Source of the DNA: a virus | Lineage: Duplodnaviria; Heunggongvirae; Uroviricota; Caudoviricetes | Length of the DNA stretch: 43,429 nucleotides | Direction: 5' to 3' (one strand) | Virus record (IMG/VR): IMGVR_UViG_2522572023_000001 | Part shown: positions 19,501 to 25,500 of the stretch, one piece after another | How positions within the stretch are numbered: the first letter of the stretch is position 1 | How the letters are laid out: the number at the start of each line of letters is the position of its first letter | Program-made: the position numbers

Positions 19501-22500
19501 AGTTTATTGGTTTTCGTAACTGAGTCATTTTATTATTTTATTGCAACTTTTAATCTTTTATAGTGCGAAATAAATGGAGCTGGCATTCATTTCGCACTTT
19601 ATGTTTTTGTTGGACTTATGTTATTTTGATTGAATTCAATTCAGTTAAAAAAAGAAGGTGATTGCTCCATTTATAAATGAATAGTCATCCCCTGTCTTGA
19701 ATTCTGATGTTACTTTATTAAATGCTAGTGTGAAGGCTACAGGTGCATACCCAATTGTTGCGCCAACTTGATATTCATCAACAGTTTTGTTTAGCGATAC
19801 TGTTGTTTGTTTCGTCTGTATTGTTTTTCCTTCGAGAGTATAGTTGCGATTGACATCTCGTCTTTCCATACCTGCAAAAATCTTGTATTTGAATCCGCTT
19901 GTATCGGACATATGCATTAAACCACGGGGAGCCAGCAGACCAAAGCCATTATCCGAATTGAAGGTTTTATCATTACCAATGGCAATGGTTGCGCCATATG
20001 CTACATATTGAAATAAGTTTCCAGTAACAGCAGAAACTTCAGGGTATAATCCAACATTAGCACCTAAAATATCCATACTTGGTGTCATGGATAGCATCCC
20101 TTTTACAGTATAACCGTAGCGATTCTCTATTTGATCATCCCATGCATGATATTTTTCTGCCCCAATAATCTCATGAGCTTTATTTTGTACTTTCTGACCG
20201 CCTGCGTCGGGGCCAACAACACCTATGTCAGTACCTAATCGATAGCGAATCCAGTCATTCGCAAGGGAGTTCCATTCAATACCAGTGTGAGTGTATGCAC
20301 TAAAAGCTCTGTCTCCAGTTACAGCTGTGTTGTGTCTTTTATTACTGCCTGATGGAGAGTAAATATCTTGCGCAATATGGAGAGATAATTGGCTCGAGTC
20401 TGAGATATCGTGGCTATATCCCAGAAATAAGCCTTGTGAGTAATCATCTCTGTTTTCATGTTTATTGCCATAAATATCATTAAGTATTGGTTGAAACTTC
20501 CCTGCATCATCATTTGCTAATGATAATGCAAGGCTGTTCGCGATAGCTGAACACGTGGTAAATGACAGAGCAATAAAGACGCCAGCGATGACACTTTTTT
20601 TCATATGTTATTGTCTTCCTTTTTTTTGAATGGTGCGCGTATTTTACATACATGAGTTTGTAATACAAGGTGCGTAATCAATATGATGTTTTATAATTGC
20701 GTGAGACAATTGATTTATTCGTTTTTTATTGCGGTTTTATTATCTTTTAATGTAACGGTGTTTTTATTAAGTGTGTTTGCGTGGTGTTTTATGTTTTTTA
20801 TAATTTTTATTTTATTAAATTTAAATGCATTAGTAATGGCTATTCTATATAGCAATATAAGAACTGTTACAAAAAAAGGGGGGCAATTACAGGTAGTTAT
20901 GGATGATGAGTGAAACAGATATTGGAGAACCGGGGAATGAATGATGTCTGAGTCTTATATATCAGAACTCCTTCGCTGTCGCTGGGGGCTCCTGTGCTTA
21001 TGTCGTTTCCCCGATTCGGTTTTGAACGATTACCGAATGTTGAAGAATTATGCCAAAATATAGAAAGGATTTACTGCATGAATACCCAATATTTACAGTA
21101 TGTTCGTGAGCAACTTATGGCAGCTACTGCTGACTTGAACGGAGCAACGAAAGGCCAGCTCGAAGCCTGGCAGGAGCATGCACAATTTGATACTGGTACA
21201 TACAAACGAAAGAAGCCGCGCATTCTGGATGTGGTAACTGGCAAGATGATTACGCTGGATAATACGCCGACTTCCGGTAAGCAGTCGTACGCAAAAGGTT
21301 CATCCATTGCTTTGGTCAGCCCGGTTGAATTCTCAACCTCTTCATGGCGCCGCGCGGTTTTGTCTCTCGATGAACATCAGAAAGCATGGTTGCTTTGGTG
21401 TTACAGCGAAAGCGTTCGATGGGGGCATCAGGTCACCATAACGCAATGGGCATGGAGCGAGTTTAAAGATTTGTTAAGTAACAGAAAAATTGCAGGTAAG
21501 ACACTGGATCGCCTGAAGACGTTAATCTGGCTGGCTGCACAGGATGTGAAGAGCGAACTTGCAGGGCGTGAGGCCTATGAATACCAGACACTGGCATCAT
21601 TGGTGGGAGTGACAACAAAAAACTGGTCCGAGACATTTACTGAACGCTGGGTTGCAATGAAGCACATTTTTCTACAGCTTGATAGTGATGCTTTATTGCT
21701 TGTGACGAGAACACGTTCAAAACAAAAGGCAGCATTTTTACAGCAAAATATTGCAAAACTGGATTAAAAGCCATATACTTCATGCAAATTTGGTATGTTG
21801 TAAAAAATGTATAAACCCGCTGCCGAGTGGGTTTTTTTTATGCCCTGAGTTGTACTTGTACGGTAAACATGCTGGCTGCTATGTAATAGAGTTTTTTTAG
21901 CCTGTAACCTCTTGACGGCATTGAATTGCTTTTGTTATGAGTTGTAAGCCAATGTTATCATCTTGTATTGGGGTGGTTATGAAGGATGGTGCGCTGCTCA
22001 GGAGTTCTTCACTTTTTATTGCCTACATGGGATGCCTTGGATGGGGGAGTGCTTATTTCTATGGATGGGGTACTTCTTTTTACTACGGCTTCCCATGGTG
22101 GATTGTAGGTGCAGGTGTTGATGATGTTGCCAGAAGTTTATTTTTTGCAGTTATCGTCATTGCTATATTTCTTATCGGTTGGGGTATTGGTGTTGTATTC
22201 TTTTTCGCAGTGAAAAGAAAACATTCTATGCAAGAGCTAAATGTATTTCGCCTTTATTTTGCTGTGGAATTATTGTTTGTGCCGGCAATTATTGAGTTTT
22301 CTATATTGAGACAGAAGATTCAGGTACCTCTTTTGCTACTGTCAGCAGCGATTGCGCTGGCGGTTACAATTTCGATAAGATCTTATGGGCGATTTTTATC
22401 GGTATCATGCTTCTATGATAAGCCATTTATAAAAAAACATTTTTTTGAGATTGTGATGATTGCTTTTGTGGCATATTTTTGGCTTTTTTCATTTCTGACA

Positions 22501-25500
22501 GGATATTACAAACCACAGTTTAAGAAAGAATATGAAATGATTAATTATAATGATGGTTGGTATTATGTTCTTGCTCGTTATGATAATTGTCTGGTTTTGT
22601 CTACTTCTTTCAATGCAGGTAGTAAAAGGTTTGTCATTTATCAATCAGCACAAGATAAGAATCTTCAGGTTGATATTGTAAGGACCAGAATTTAATTGGC
22701 TGCATAAATAATATTTCAAGTTGCAAGTTGGCTATTCGTAGGAATAGAACCTTAGGCATGCTGAATGCGTTTTCTGAACATTGTTTTATAAACTGTGTCT
22801 GCTTGCTGTTGTGATCCTGCTTTTAGTGATGGTGATGATGGATTTCACCAGCAGGATAATGTTGGTACTGACTGATGGCGCTCTGGTCTGCGGCATTGTG
22901 GTATTGCTGTGGCCGATGATGAAAGAACAGAATGAATAATTCTTGACTTTTTTGTTTACTGTTTATTAAAAAATCAACCGCATGGTGAATCCTCCTTGGA
23001 GGGGCTAAATGATCGAGTTTTAAGGGCACGTAGCGAGTTCTGTTTGATCATTGCAGAACTTAGCGGGAGGCGCCATGCGTACATCACTAGTGTTATTCCT
23101 TTTATCATTTTCCTTGTGAGTTCTGGCTGCGCATTGCGCAGCCTTTTTTTTACGACCAGCCACTGGCAGATGGTCATCCTGTGATTTGATTCCGCTTCCG
23201 GCTTTTTAACTCTGTTCCTCTACACGGGAGAAATTCGATGTCGATTAAACATTATGATGTTGTCAGGGCGGCGTCGCCGTCAGACCTTGCGGAAAAGCTG
23301 ACACACAAACTGAAAGAGGGCTGGCAGCCATACGGCGGACCGGTTGCCATTACGCCGTACACACTGATGCAGGCGGTGGCTATTGAAGGAGAGCCACAGG
23401 TCGGCCCTTCATCTGAGCCGGATTGGTACTACGTCATCGTACTGGCCGGGCAGTCCAATGCCATGGCTTACGGTGAAGGGCTTCCGCTGCCGGATTCATA
23501 CGATGCTCCGGATCCGCGCATTAAACAGCTGGCGCGCCGCAGTACAGTGACGCCGGGTGGGGCTGCCTGCAGATATAACGATATTATTCCGGCCGACCAC
23601 TGCCTGCATGATGTGCAGGATATGAGTACGCTGAATCATCCGAAGGCAGACCTGAGCAAAGGGCAGTACGGCTGTGTCGGCCAGGGCTTACATATTGCCA
23701 AAAAACTGCTCCCGTATATCCCGAATAACGCGGGGATCCTGCTGGTACCATGCTGTCGTGGTGGTTCGGCATTCACCCAGGGCGCGGAGGGGACATTCAG
23801 TGCGGACACGGGGGCCAGCCAGGATTCGGCACGCTGGGGGGTGGGAAAGCCGTTATATCAGGATCTGATTTCCCGCACAAAAGCGGCATTGCAGAAAAAT
23901 CCCAAAAACGTTCTGCTGGCCGTCTGCTGGATGCAGGGAGAGTTTGACATGAGCGCCGCCACCCACGCACAGCAACCTGCGCTGTTTACAGCCATGCTGA
24001 CACAGTTTCGTGCTGACCTCTCCGTGTTTAACGCGCAGTGCCATGGTGGCAGTGCTGCAGATGTGCCGTGGATTTGTGGTGACACGACGTATTACTGGAA
24101 AAATACATACGCTACCCAGTACGACACCGTGTACGGCGGGTATAAAAACAGGGAGAGTGAGGGCGTTTATTTTGTGCCCTTCATGACAGACGGTAACGGC
24201 GTCAATACCGCCACTAACGCGCCGGCAGAAGATCCGGATATTCCGGCATCAGGATATTACGGTGCGGCATCGAGAACGAATGGAAACCAGGTATCATCAA
24301 ACCGCCCGACACATTTCAGTTCATGGGCGCGCAGGAGCATTATTCCGGATCGTCTGGCAACCGCTATTCTGAACGCAGCCGGGCGCACCTCAGCCTTCAT
24401 CAGTGGTAAGGCACCGGAAATCAAACCCTCGCCCGGCGGCAACACGCCATCGGGTCCGTCTGCAGATACGTCCGTTCGCACAATCTCCCTGCTGCCGGCA
24501 GCCGGAGAGGCTGCTGCGCAGGGCTGGAGCATTAAGGATGGCGGAATTCAGTTGTCAGATGGTGTATTTAAGATCACCAAGCAGAGCAATAAAACCTGGT
24601 CCCTGACGCATCCGGTGGATGACGCAATTACCCTGCTGACACAGGGCGGCAGACTGACCTGTAAGTTCCGCCTGTCAGGCGCACTGACCAACAATCAGTT
24701 CGGGCTGGGGATTTATCTGTATACGGATGCTCCCGTTCCTGATGGTGTGGCGATGACGGGTACCGGTAATCCGTTCCTGATGTCGTACTTCACTCAGACC
24801 ACTGACGGCAGAGTGAATCTGATGCATCACAGGAAAGCCGGAAACACGAAGCTGGGGGAGTTCGGCGATTACGGTAACGACTGGCAGACGCTGGAGCTGG
24901 TGTTCACCGCCGGCAGTGCCACGGTTACTCCGAAACTGAATGGAGTGGCTGGCCCGGCATTCCAGGTTATAAAAGACAGTCTGACACTGGGACTGAATGC
25001 GCTGACGCTGACGGATGTTACAAAAAATGCAGCGTATGGCGTTGAGATAGAAAGTCTGGTGCTGGAGATAAATGCACCGGCAGCATAATAAAAAGTGAGC
25101 CAGTCAAATGGAAGGTATCGTTAAACTCACCGGTAGTGTCAGTGGGTCGTCTGAGACGCCTGCATGAGTTATCAGAGCCATCAGTAGTTAACTGGTGGCT
25201 TTTTTATTGTTGTCAGCTTCCGGATAACGGGAGACGGGGTATGTACCAGATGGAAAAAATCACAACAGGTGTGTCATACACCACGTCAGCGGTGGGGACG
25301 GGATACTGGTTACTGCAGCTGCTGGACAAAGTCTCTCCGTCCCAGTGGGTGGCAATAGGTGTGCTGGGGAGTCTGCTGTTTGGCCTGCTGACGTATCTGA
25401 CTAACCTTTATTTCAAGATTAAAGAAGACCGGCGTAAGGCGGCGCGGGGAGAGTAAAGCGATGAAGAAAAAATACGAACTGGTTGTTAAAGGGATAAATA

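What the first reader, a model, noticed from the sequence alone, without database searches (positions are those of the whole stretch)
21937..22695. Polytopic membrane protein at the position Stx phages use for stx
The gene order is Q-like gene, tR'-like terminator, this AT-rich 252-aa membrane gene (about six hydrophobic segments), terminator, nanS-p-like gene, holin. In Stx phages the stx genes sit between tR' and nanS-p. This position is therefore under late-promoter/antiterminator control and is a classic cargo site; the occupant here is unrecognised.
Basis: partly seen in the sequence, partly recalled or inferred. Interest (0 to 1): 0.6.

Follow-up and report, generated by a model that had tools for sequence, protein, structure and literature searches.

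The report
Uncharacterised membrane gene in the stx slot
This is a real and very common prophage cargo gene for an inner-membrane protein of the STM1630/TfpB family; it sits exactly where Shiga-toxin phages carry stx, it is already catalogued (it is even in classic phage 434), and nobody knows what it does.

Summary
The ORF is real, AT-rich (GC 0.36) and under strong purifying selection (dN/dS 0.06-0.19). The conserved protein is 238 aa and starts at 21979, not 21937. The AlphaFold model (pLDDT 82) shows five membrane helices plus a small C-terminal beta domain, probably periplasmic.

The "stx slot" reading holds. The gene follows three different Q antiterminator types. A 68%-identical subtype lies between the same methylase/tRNA and nanS-p flanks that hold stx2AB in Stx2a phages.

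It is not unrecognised. It is 100% identical to phage 434 gene CPT_434_68. It belongs to Pfam PF27470 (TfpB) and PHROG 1521, one PGAP record names it "STM1630 family protein", and 692 of 5426 complete E. coli genomes carry it.

Relatives lie next to LT toxin genes in ETEC, on the Shigella virulence plasmid, and beside sseJ in Salmonella (STM1630). STM1630 is H-NS-bound and expressed in SPI-2 medium and macrophages.

No sequence or fold search gave a function.

Best reading: a lysogenic-conversion moron acting at the periplasmic face of the inner membrane, dispensable for phage growth (434B lacks it). Superinfection exclusion is the main rival. Interest is modest.

The parts
19645..20604 (-). 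lpxR (lipid A 3'-O-deacylase family), a recurrent neighbour of tfpB
   Evidence: PF09982, E 6.8e-40. A roughly 70%-identical lpxR also lies next to tfpB in two other arrangements: L017-L019 (convergent) and the C. rodentium locus L021 (divergent). It is absent next to tfpB in prophages with a lambda-type Q, so the link is loose.
21078..21767 (+). Q82-type late antiterminator Q
   Evidence: PF06323, E 1.7e-91, and PHROG 304. It is 89.6% identical to the phage 82 Q record X92588.
21751..21779 (+). pR'-like late promoter (TTGCAA-17-TATACT) overlapping the end of Q, with a -10-like TATGTT at 21794-21799 downstream
   Evidence: Consensus scan. Its role as pR', and the pause element, are inferred by analogy with lambdoid late promoters and were not tested.
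21813..21839 (+). tR'-like intrinsic terminator (9-bp stem plus T8)
   Evidence: dG -15.8 kcal/mol, z -3.3. Homology between prophages with different Q types starts about here, so this is the left edge of the shared tfpB module.
21912..21941 (+). Candidate own promoter of tfpB: TTGACG, 18-nt spacer with TG at 21933-21934, then TATGAG (21936-21941)
Evidence: The same arrangement lies 36-40 nt from the start codon in the window, L005, L006, L017 (68% subtype) and the ETEC plasmid copy L009 (59% subtype, no Q upstream). The surrounding sequence is otherwise diverged. Not shown experimentally.
21970..21976 (+). Shine-Dalgarno-like GGGGTGG
   Evidence: Read directly from the sequence. Purine-rich equivalents occur at the same place in the homologous loci.
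21979..22695 (+). tfpB/STM1630-family gene: 238-aa inner-membrane protein (the finding, with corrected start)
   Evidence: 100% identical to phage 434 CPT_434_68.
22781..22939 (+). tciB-like DUF3927 small membrane protein (52 aa), which travels with the close tfpB subtype
   Evidence: PF13064, E 3.4e-14, and PHROG 1470. Present with tfpB in L001-L004 and L026-L033, and absent from the other subtypes.
22996..23184 (+). orf62, a doubtful small ORF overlapping the terminator
   Evidence: Annotated as a putative membrane protein in phage 434. Frameshifted in L026, L030 and L032. PGAP instead calls a pseudogene on the opposite strand here.
23125..23151 (+). Strong intrinsic terminator (8-bp GC stem plus T8) closing the cargo module
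   Evidence: dG -20.2 kcal/mol, z -3.8.
23238..25088 (+). nanS-p-like 9-O-acetyl sialic acid esterase, the right flank shared with Stx phages
   Evidence: PF08410, PF03629 and PF20350. 91-93% DNA identity to yjhS of Stx1a and Stx2a phages.
25241..25456 (+). Class II holin, the start of the lysis cassette
   Evidence: PF04971, E 3.5e-32. PGAP coordinates.

Best explanation
The gene is a self-contained 'moron' (lysogenic-conversion cargo). It encodes a 238-aa inner-membrane protein of the STM1630/TfpB family (Pfam PF27470).

Structure and topology (inferred). The protein has five transmembrane helices with the N-terminus in the cytoplasm. A small beta-barrel-like C-terminal domain is exposed to the periplasm. 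The best-conserved surface lies on that periplasmic face. It consists of an aromatic/glycine belt (GWGSAYFYGWGxSFYYGFPWW) at the outer end of helix 1 and in the first loop, the outer halves of helices 2 and 5, and the first strands of the C-domain.

Expression (inferred). The gene is the first gene after pR'-tR' of the late operon. This is the same slot that holds stx in Stx phages, so Q-modified RNA polymerase should read through it after induction. It also carries its own conserved sigma70-type promoter. Like other AT-rich acquired genes, it is probably H-NS-silenced in the lysogen and turned on under host-associated conditions.

Function (inferred). It does not serve phage growth. It most likely changes a property of the host cell envelope or of host-pathogen interaction, by binding a periplasmic or outer-leaflet partner rather than by catalysis.

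What is shown and what is inferred. Shown: the gene, its family, its conservation, its position and its allelism with stx. Shown for the Salmonella homologue only: the expression pattern, H-NS binding and the mutant phenotypes. Inferred: topology, promoter use and the envelope or host-fitness role.
For: Identity and family:
- 100% identical to phage 434 CPT_434_68.
- PHROG 1521, E 2e-154. A precomputed PF27470 hit on the identical protein and on all 103 homologues.
- PGAP product name 'STM1630 family protein'.
- 46% identity over the full length to P0075. P0075 is STM1630, because the published knockout primer translates to its residues 9-23.

A real, functional gene:
- dN/dS of 0.06-0.19.
- 692 of 5426 complete E. 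coli genomes carry it, at a median of 2 copies.

Cargo slot:
- It follows three different Q families.
- Stx phages share only the nanS-p flank with this window.
- On one shared backbone, tfpB+lpxR and stx2AB are alternative inserts.
- Its GC content is atypical for the window.

Autonomy:
- Homologues are stand-alone genes among housekeeping genes in Avibacterium and Neisseria.
- Homologues also lie on ETEC and Shigella plasmids with no Q upstream.
- STM1630 has its own mapped promoter, and two -10 SNPs silence it.
- The TTGACG-N18(TG)-TAT motif lies at a fixed distance from the start codon in three diverged E. coli subtypes.

Dispensable for lytic growth:
- The plaque-forming derivative 434B has replaced the whole segment from Q through the lysis genes with DLP12 DNA.

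Host-side role, from data on STM1630:
- STM1630 is H-NS-bound and is expressed in SPI-2-inducing medium and in macrophages.
- Its mutants were reported attenuated in calves and chicks.
- Deleting it in strain 4/74 raises intramacrophage replication.
- It is listed among genes co-regulated with the virulence regulon.

Genomic company:
- Family members sit beside lpxR, eltAB, sseJ/steB and the pINV entry region.
- This window also carries PerC, Cif and NleG.

Structure:
- AlphaFold model with pLDDT 82 and pTM 0.76.
- Positive-inside count: 7.2 K+R in the predicted cytoplasmic loops against 0.9 in the periplasmic loops.
- Conservation is concentrated on the predicted periplasmic side.
- Only one residue (G175) is invariant across the wide family, so there is no sign of a catalytic site.
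Against: - No experiment exists on the E. coli or phage protein.
- The Salmonella phenotypes are weak or mixed. Growth in LB is normal. There is no macrophage phenotype in strain D23580. The reported hypermotility was not reproduced with a clean deletion.
- The promoter is only a conserved consensus match. Its -10 lacks the usual final T, and promoter-like sites are no more frequent in this region than in shuffled sequence.
- The topology rests on the positive-inside rule, and three conserved lysines directly follow helix 5.
- No fold or sequence relative of known function was found, so 'envelope or host fitness' is a class of function, not a mechanism.
- Neighbourhood with virulence genes may only reflect shared AT-rich, IS-rich and prophage landing sites.
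Confidence: 0.5

Rival explanations
1. Superinfection exclusion or another anti-phage function. The inner-membrane protein would be made in the lysogen from its own promoter. Its periplasm-facing conserved surface would block DNA entry by incoming phages, or trigger abortive infection, as other prophage membrane morons do.
For: - It is a prophage-borne inner-membrane protein with a candidate promoter of its own.
- Its conserved surface lies on the predicted periplasmic face.
- It is dispensable for lytic growth.
- It is very common and multi-copy in prophage-rich EHEC genomes.
- It is stand-alone and needs no partner gene.
Against: - No hit to any of 5027 PADLOC models.
- Distant homologues sit among housekeeping genes, not in defence islands.
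- The Salmonella member is expressed under SPI-2 and macrophage conditions and has reported animal-colonisation phenotypes.
- It lies in the late operon rather than the immunity region.
- It is also kept on ETEC and Shigella virulence plasmids.
Confidence: 0.2
2. Late-operon accessory of lysis or virion release. It would be a membrane protein made with the lysis cassette that tunes holin timing or envelope breakdown.
For: - It is the first gene of the late transcript, upstream of holin, endolysin and spanin.
- It is membrane-embedded, with a probable periplasmic domain.
- Two further small membrane ORFs follow it.
Against: - It is separated from the holin by a strong terminator and by nanS-p.
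- It has no similarity to holin, antiholin or spanin families. Only the gene at 25241-25456 matches holin models.
- 434B lyses without it, although it does so with a DLP12 lysis cassette.
- Most family contexts have no lysis genes at all: ETEC, Shigella, Salmonella, Citrobacter, Avibacterium and Neisseria.
Confidence: 0.05
3. Helper for the neighbouring toxin or effector cargo, for example in export, release or immunity. This would explain why it keeps company with eltAB, sseJ/steB and T3SS genes and occupies the stx slot.
For: It is adjacent to eltAB and STb on porcine ETEC plasmids, adjacent to sseJ in Salmonella, and between virA and spa40 on pINV.
Against: - The neighbours are unrelated to one another (an AB5 toxin, a T3SS effector, an outer-membrane deacylase), and their orientation varies.
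- No sequenced Stx phage carries it. tblastn against 50,697 phage records found only 434 and 2B8, so it replaces stx rather than accompanying it.
- Distant homologues have no toxin nearby.
Confidence: 0.05
4. A decaying or silent passenger ORF with no present function in E. coli.
For: - Many truncated or frameshifted copies and fragment families exist. Fragment PHROGs 14371, 17164 and 3985, and many partial proteins.
- The gene is transcriptionally silenced in Salmonella ST313.
Against: - dN/dS of 0.06-0.19, including between close relatives.
- An intact 238-aa frame across genera.
- An identical protein in thousands of assemblies.
- Most 'partial' entries are cut by contig ends.
Confidence: 0.03

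Closest known systems
Phage 434 gene CPT_434_68, 'putative membrane protein' (OL657226), and phage 2B8 gp58
   Same: 100% (434) and 98% (2B8) DNA identity over the whole gene. The same tfpB-tciB-orf62-nanS-p-holin order. 434 also has the same lpxR-ylcG-Q82 left flank.
   Different: Nothing of substance. The 434 record starts the CDS at the second ATG (window 21952). 2B8 has a lambda-type Q and pR' upstream.
Salmonella Typhimurium STM1630 (SL1344_1560)
   Same: 46% identity over all 238 residues and the same length and architecture. It is AT-rich and sits beside acquired virulence genes. PGAP names the E. coli gene 'STM1630 family protein'. It is the only family member with experimental data.
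   Different: It lies in a chromosomal islet between steB and sseJ, not in a prophage. There is no Q or late promoter. Its own promoter lies further upstream and lacks the E. coli TTGACG-N18-TAT motif.
stx1AB / stx2AB of Stx-converting phages (positional analogue only)
   Same: The same slot: downstream of Q/pR'/tR' (plus methylase and tRNAs on some backbones) and upstream of nanS-p and the holin. On one backbone the two are alternative inserts. Like stx1, which has its own promoter (my own knowledge), tfpB appears to combine a promoter of its own with late read-through.
   Different: The protein is unrelated: an inner-membrane protein, not a secreted AB5 toxin. No sequenced phage carries both.
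Other lambdoid lysogenic-conversion membrane morons, such as lambda Bor and Lom or the HK97 gp15 exclusion protein (resemblance recalled from general knowledge, not tested)
   Same: A small envelope protein gene of atypical composition, inserted between conserved phage modules, dispensable for growth, and presumed to be expressed from the prophage.
   Different: No sequence or fold similarity was found to any characterised protein.
Moraxella 'protein TfpB', the ORF in the type-4 pilin inversion region that gives PF27470 its name (from memory; not verified here)
   Same: The family name. One E. coli member is annotated 'protein tfpB'. The family reaches Neisseria and the Pasteurellaceae.
   Different: I could not retrieve the Moraxella sequence or its locus, and no pilin genes lie next to any locus examined here. 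The 'TfpB' in recent pilus papers is an Acinetobacter PilB-like ATPase and is unrelated.

Membership tests
Pfam PF27470 (TfpB) / PGAP 'STM1630 family protein' | Significant match to the family model | tested here: met
   A precomputed PF27470 hit (unmarked, so E <= 1e-5) on the identical 247-aa product and on all 103 homologues. The PGAP product name on an identical gene. The local Pfam-A and NCBIfam copies do not hold the model and gave no hit.
Pfam PF27470 (TfpB) / PGAP 'STM1630 family protein' | Full-length homology to STM1630 itself | tested here: met
   46% identity over residues 1-238, E 1e-70. P0075 is identified as STM1630 by the primer translation, the 717-bp length and the sseJ neighbour.
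Pfam PF27470 (TfpB) / PGAP 'STM1630 family protein' | Shared architecture: about 238 aa, the N-terminal GWGSAYxYGWG...PWW motif, five helices and a C-terminal beta domain | tested here: met
   Alignments A1, A2 and A5 and the model with pLDDT 82.
PHROG 1521 (unknown function) | Profile match over the whole profile | tested here: met
   E 2.1e-154, profile positions 1-222 of 222.
Phage 'moron' (cargo gene unit) | Lies between genes that are adjacent, or hold other cargo, in related phages | tested here: met
   Stx phages have stx between the same flanks. The module joins three different Q types at the tR' hairpin.
Phage 'moron' (cargo gene unit) | Base composition unlike the surrounding phage genes | tested here: met
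   GC 0.361, against 0.461 for Q, 0.558 for nanS-p and 0.471 for the window.
Phage 'moron' (cargo gene unit) | Own promoter and terminator, with expression from the repressed prophage | tested here: inconclusive
   A conserved TTGACG-N18(TG)-TAT motif at a fixed distance from the start codon and a strong downstream terminator. There are no expression data for E. coli. Promoter-like sites are not enriched over shuffled sequence.
Holins / lysis proteins | Match to a holin, antiholin or spanin family, small size, and placement next to the endolysin | tested here: not met
   No Pfam or PHROG lysis hit for this protein. The holin is the separate gene at 25241-25456.
Known transporters / channels | Sequence or fold similarity to a transporter family | tested here: not met
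Known anti-phage defence / exclusion systems | Match to a catalogued defence protein model | tested here: not met
   PADLOC-DB v2 gave 0 families at E <= 1. Exclusion activity itself cannot be tested with these tools.

The most novel reading that the evidence does not exclude
The STM1630/TfpB family may be an unrecognised class of envelope-acting virulence or fitness factor with a fold not seen in solved structures. It would be spread by prophages, plasmids and islets into the same cargo sites that carry Stx, LT and T3SS effectors in enteric pathogens. It might work with the recurrently neighbouring lipid A genes (lpxR and the pmrD/iraM-like gene) to remodel or sense the outer leaflet of the inner membrane or the LPS pathway. 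Alternatively, it may be a new single-gene phage-exclusion protein.
Probability: 0.2. Interest if true: 0.6.

Novelty: already known. Interest (0 to 1): 0.3.

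Why it matters
About one in eight complete E. coli genomes carries this gene, usually twice. They include O157:H7, O145, O26 and O121. Relatives sit at virulence loci in ETEC, Shigella, Salmonella and Citrobacter rodentium, yet no function is known.

It shows that the stx slot of lambdoid prophages is a general cargo site with recurring alternative occupants. It also gives an easy entry point: phage 434 carries an identical copy in a safe K-12 system, and its natural derivative 434B lacks it.

If a role were found in envelope remodelling, host colonisation or phage exclusion, it would apply at once to several major enteric pathogens. As it stands, the finding is a correct but ordinary observation about a catalogued hypothetical gene.

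Tried and rejected
Searches that gave no functional lead:
- Local Pfam-A, NCBIfam and PADLOC scans of the protein gave nothing.
- Scanning all 47 family members for recurrent weak Pfam or PHROG hits gave only scattered chance matches and unannotated PHROGs.
- A PDB sequence-profile search gave 0 hits.
- Foldseek against BFVD and the PDB gave nothing below E 0.03. There were only faint SH3-like matches to the C-domain, such as the HIV integrase CTD and the KorB C-domain.
- The AFDB50 library was not available.
- The first AlphaFold run, with 24 close sequences, was poor (pLDDT 59) and was replaced by the 47-sequence run.

Literature dead ends:
- Searches for PF27470, WP_001302581 and tfpB with Moraxella found nothing.
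- 'TfpB' in recent papers is an Acinetobacter PilB-like ATPase.
- 'TciA/TciB' hits were Trypanosoma genotypes or P1-type tci genes.
- The LT-II prophage paper concerns a different slot, after the lysozyme gene.
- The Ogawa et al. lpxR paper, which I recalled from memory, is not held.

Scans that fell short:
- The reference-genome scan returned only 5 loci. The wide alignment was too divergent to seed a scan.
- I looked for Moraxella-like pilin or invertase neighbours of the distant homologues and found only housekeeping genes.

Ideas rejected:
- A lipoprotein reading of 'YMGC' near the N-terminus, because the Cys is not conserved.
- A terminator directly after the gene, because no significant hairpin lies at 22690-22785.
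- Obligate linkage with tciB or lpxR. Both are absent from several tfpB contexts.

Full report
**What is there.** The window is a lambdoid prophage. It is 100% identical to E. coli O145:H28 RM12761 over the region tested. An uninterrupted ORF runs 21937-22695 on the + strand. Its GC content is 0.361, against 0.471 for the window and 0.558 for the next large gene. Almost all homologues are 237-238 aa. GGGGTGG lies 3 nt upstream of that ATG. PGAP and the phage 434 record start at the second ATG, 21952. The corrected gene is 21979-22695 and encodes 238 aa. Pairwise dN/dS against eight orthologues is 0.06-0.19, so this is a functional protein-coding gene.

**Surroundings.**
- Upstream lies a Q82-type antiterminator gene (21078-21767; PF06323, E 1.7e-91).
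- A promoter-like TTGCAA-17-TATACT overlaps its end (21751-21779).
- A hairpin plus T8 lies at 21813-21839 (dG -15.8 kcal/mol, z -3.3).
- Downstream come tciB/DUF3927 (22781-22939; PF13064), a doubtful 62-codon ORF (22996-23184) and a strong terminator (23125-23151; dG -20.2 kcal/mol).
- After those come a nanS-p-like esterase (23238-25088) and a class II holin (25241-25456).

The second terminator is not directly after the membrane gene, and no significant hairpin lies there. lpxR lies on the other strand upstream of Q (19645-20604).

**Is it unrecognised?** No.
- The DNA is 100% identical to phage 434 gene CPT_434_68, 'putative membrane protein', and 98% identical to phage 2B8 gp58.
- It matches PHROG 1521 (unknown function) at E 2e-154.
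- The public protein collection assigns the identical product and all 103 homologues to Pfam PF27470, 'TfpB'. That model is newer than the local Pfam copy, which found nothing.
- One recent PGAP record names an identical gene 'STM1630 family protein'. One older record names a relative 'protein tfpB'.
- 692 of 5426 complete E. coli genomes carry it, at a median of two copies. They include O157:H7 EDL933, O121, O145 and O26.
- The exact protein is indexed in 19,053 blocks of the assembly collection.
- Only 3 of 50,697 phage records have it, by both blastn and tblastn.

**The stx-slot claim.**
- More than 240 Stx phage records share with this window only the stretch from 23245 onward, which is nanS-p.
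- An Stx1a phage reads Q ... stx1A-stx1B-yjhS (1851 nt, the same length)-holin.
- The identical tfpB-tciB module follows a Q82-type Q (PF06323) or a lambda-type Q (PF03589) in different prophages. A Yersinia homologue follows a PF06530 Q.
- The mosaic joint between Q types lies at the tR' hairpin.
- The most direct evidence comes from a 68%-identical subtype (P0019). Its prophages read Q-ORF6N-methylase-tRNA-tRNA-tfpB-lpxR(-)-(pmrD/iraM-like)-nanS-p-holin.
- Stx2a phage LC567829 matches those prophages at 90% over the methylase-tRNA block. It matches at 71-74% over the iraM-like gene and nanS-p. Between those blocks it has tRNA-Arg and stx2AB, where the prophages have tfpB and lpxR.

So tfpB and stx are alternative cargoes of one slot. 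Late, Q-dependent read-through is a reasonable inference from position, but it was not tested.

**Own promoter.** The element is TTGACG (21912-21917), an 18-nt spacer ending in TG-n, then TATGAG (21936-21941). It lies 37 nt before the true start codon. The same arrangement recurs at 36-40 nt in E. albertii, in the 68% subtype, and in the 59%-identical ETEC plasmid copy, which has no Q upstream. The surrounding sequence is otherwise diverged. C. rodentium has a weaker version. The Shigella, Salmonella and Yersinia copies lack it. This is a conserved consensus match, not proof. The -10 lacks the usual final T, and promoter-like sites are not enriched in the region.

**The family.** An exhaustive profile search of 1.84 billion representative proteins found only 74 clusters at E <= 1e-3. 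They come from Enterobacteriaceae, Pasteurellaceae (Avibacterium, Gallibacterium, Actinobacillus, Pasteurella) and Neisseria. All are labelled hypothetical. The contexts differ widely.
- Porcine ETEC plasmids: divergent from eltAB and near STb and EAST1, flanked by IS elements.
- Shigella pINV: between virA and spa40, among IS elements, with matches in 106 Shigella plasmid records.
- Salmonella: divergent from sseJ.
- C. rodentium: at the same chromosomal site as in Salmonella, but divergent from lpxR.
- Avibacterium and Neisseria: single genes among housekeeping genes.

No partner gene is conserved, so the protein works on its own. lpxR neighbours tfpB in three different arrangements at about 70% identity. 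It is missing from the lambda-Q contexts.

**Experimental information exists only for Salmonella.** P0075 is STM1630. The published knockout primer encodes NSSMLLAYLGGLGWG, which is residues 9-23 of P0075. The gene is 717 bp and lies next to sseJ. According to PMC6785131 S1 Text:
- STM1630 has no known function and is absent from S. Typhi.
- It is H-NS-bound, which explains a false 'essential' call in transposon screens.
- It is expressed in SPI-2-inducing medium and in macrophages in strain 4/74.
- It is silenced by two -10 SNPs in ST313.
- Deletion does not affect growth in LB, but raises intramacrophage replication in 4/74.
- Transposon mutants were reported attenuated in calves and chicks (Morgan 2004, cited there).

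It is also listed among genes co-regulated with the virulence regulon (PMC2639726). A hypermotility phenotype (PMC4219756) was not reproduced with a clean deletion (PMC4534456).

For the phage, 434B is a plaque-forming derivative in which about 5.5 kb was replaced by DLP12 DNA. That segment includes Q, the late promoter, this gene and the lysis genes (PMC9119081; the misc_feature). The gene is therefore dispensable for lytic growth.

**Structure.**
- With 47 diverse sequences, AlphaFold gave pLDDT 82 and pTM 0.76. The model has helices 10-36, 47-79, 84-111, 116-137 and 155-181, and a five-stranded C-terminal domain at 184-235.
- Mean K+R across the family is 1.2, 2.5 and 3.4 in the N-tail and the 2-3 and 4-5 loops. 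It is 0.06 and 0.9 in the 1-2 and 3-4 loops. This favours N-in and a periplasmic C-domain. I put that at about 70%, because three conserved lysines follow helix 5.
- Conservation is highest in helix 1, the first loop, the outer halves of helices 2 and 5, and the first three strands of the C-domain. That is the predicted periplasmic face. It is lowest in the cytoplasmic loops and helix 4.
- Across the wide family only G175 is invariant, and a few aromatic or small residues are nearly so. That argues for binding or scaffolding rather than catalysis.
- No solved or viral structure resembles the model, and no PDB sequence matches the profile.

**Interpretation.** The best-supported reading is an autonomous lysogenic-conversion moron. 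It would be an inner-membrane protein with a periplasm-facing conserved surface. It would be expressed from its own, probably H-NS-silenced, promoter and boosted by late read-through after induction. It would act on the host envelope or on host interaction rather than on phage growth. I put this at about 0.5. The identity, family and position parts are near certain. The functional class is inference, leaning on the Salmonella data and on genomic company.

Superinfection exclusion is the main rival, at 0.2. It fits a prophage membrane protein with an outward-facing surface. However, it has no support from PADLOC, from the gene's contexts, or from the Salmonella expression pattern. A lysis accessory, a toxin helper and a dead ORF are each unlikely, for the reasons given in the rival entries.

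**Verdict.** The positional interpretation is supported. The claim that the gene is unrecognised is not. The gene is a catalogued, very common, uncharacterised family member. It is moderately interesting because it recurs at virulence loci in several enteric pathogens and has no known fold or function. It is easy to study in phage 434.

Noticed in passing
window 15301-17073 (- strand): A 590-aa ORF lies on the opposite strand inside the nin region (PGAP WP_001505174.1, 'hypothetical'). It has no Pfam hit and no PADLOC hit. A large unannotated cargo gene in a position where lambdoid prophages often carry defence or moron genes.
   Followed up: partly
window 19645-20604 (-); L017 6972-7919; L021 4863-5823: A prophage-borne lpxR (lipid A 3'-O-deacylase family, GC 0.39) neighbours tfpB in three different arrangements at about 70% identity. 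In C. rodentium the lpxR copy is split into two ORFs.
   Followed up: partly
L018 8187-8504; L020 8188-8505; L039 4926-5249: A PmrD/IraM-like gene (PF11183; annotated iraM in Stx2a phages) lies between the cargo slot and nanS-p. It is present both in tfpB-lpxR prophages and in Stx2a phages, which makes it a second envelope- or stress-regulator moron at this site.
   Followed up: no
window 22781-22939 and 22996-23184: The tciB-like DUF3927 gene (52 aa) always accompanies the close tfpB subtype. The following orf62 overlaps the terminator, is frameshifted in several prophages, and is annotated differently by PGAP (a pseudogene on the opposite strand) and by the 434 record (a membrane protein).
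   Followed up: partly
window 27658-27972, 40203-41030, 41918-42451: The same prophage carries a PerC/Pch-family regulator, a Cif (cycle inhibiting factor) homologue and an NleG-like T3SS effector. It is therefore a multi-cargo virulence prophage.
   Followed up: no
window 11280-12493: An IS3-family element (HTH orfA plus an rve transposase) is inserted in the early-right region of the prophage, next to the replication genes. The prophage may be defective.
   Followed up: no
L004 (JAIITD010000172.1): A 3-kb contig labelled 'MAG: Veillonella sp.' carries a 100%-identical E. coli tfpB-tciB-nanS-p segment. This is almost certainly a mis-binned E. coli prophage contig.
   Followed up: no
L013 and L021, downstream of tfpB: The Salmonella (sseJ | STM1630) and C. 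rodentium (lpxR | tfpB) islets lie at the same chromosomal site, upstream of the same adh-MCP-LysR-HGLS genes. Either this is an old shared insertion with the divergent partner gene swapped, or it is a recurrent landing site.
   Followed up: partly
L017 4869-6000: About 1.1 kb between the tRNA genes and tfpB in the 68%-subtype prophages has no called gene and no match to the Stx2a phage. Its content was not examined.
   Followed up: no
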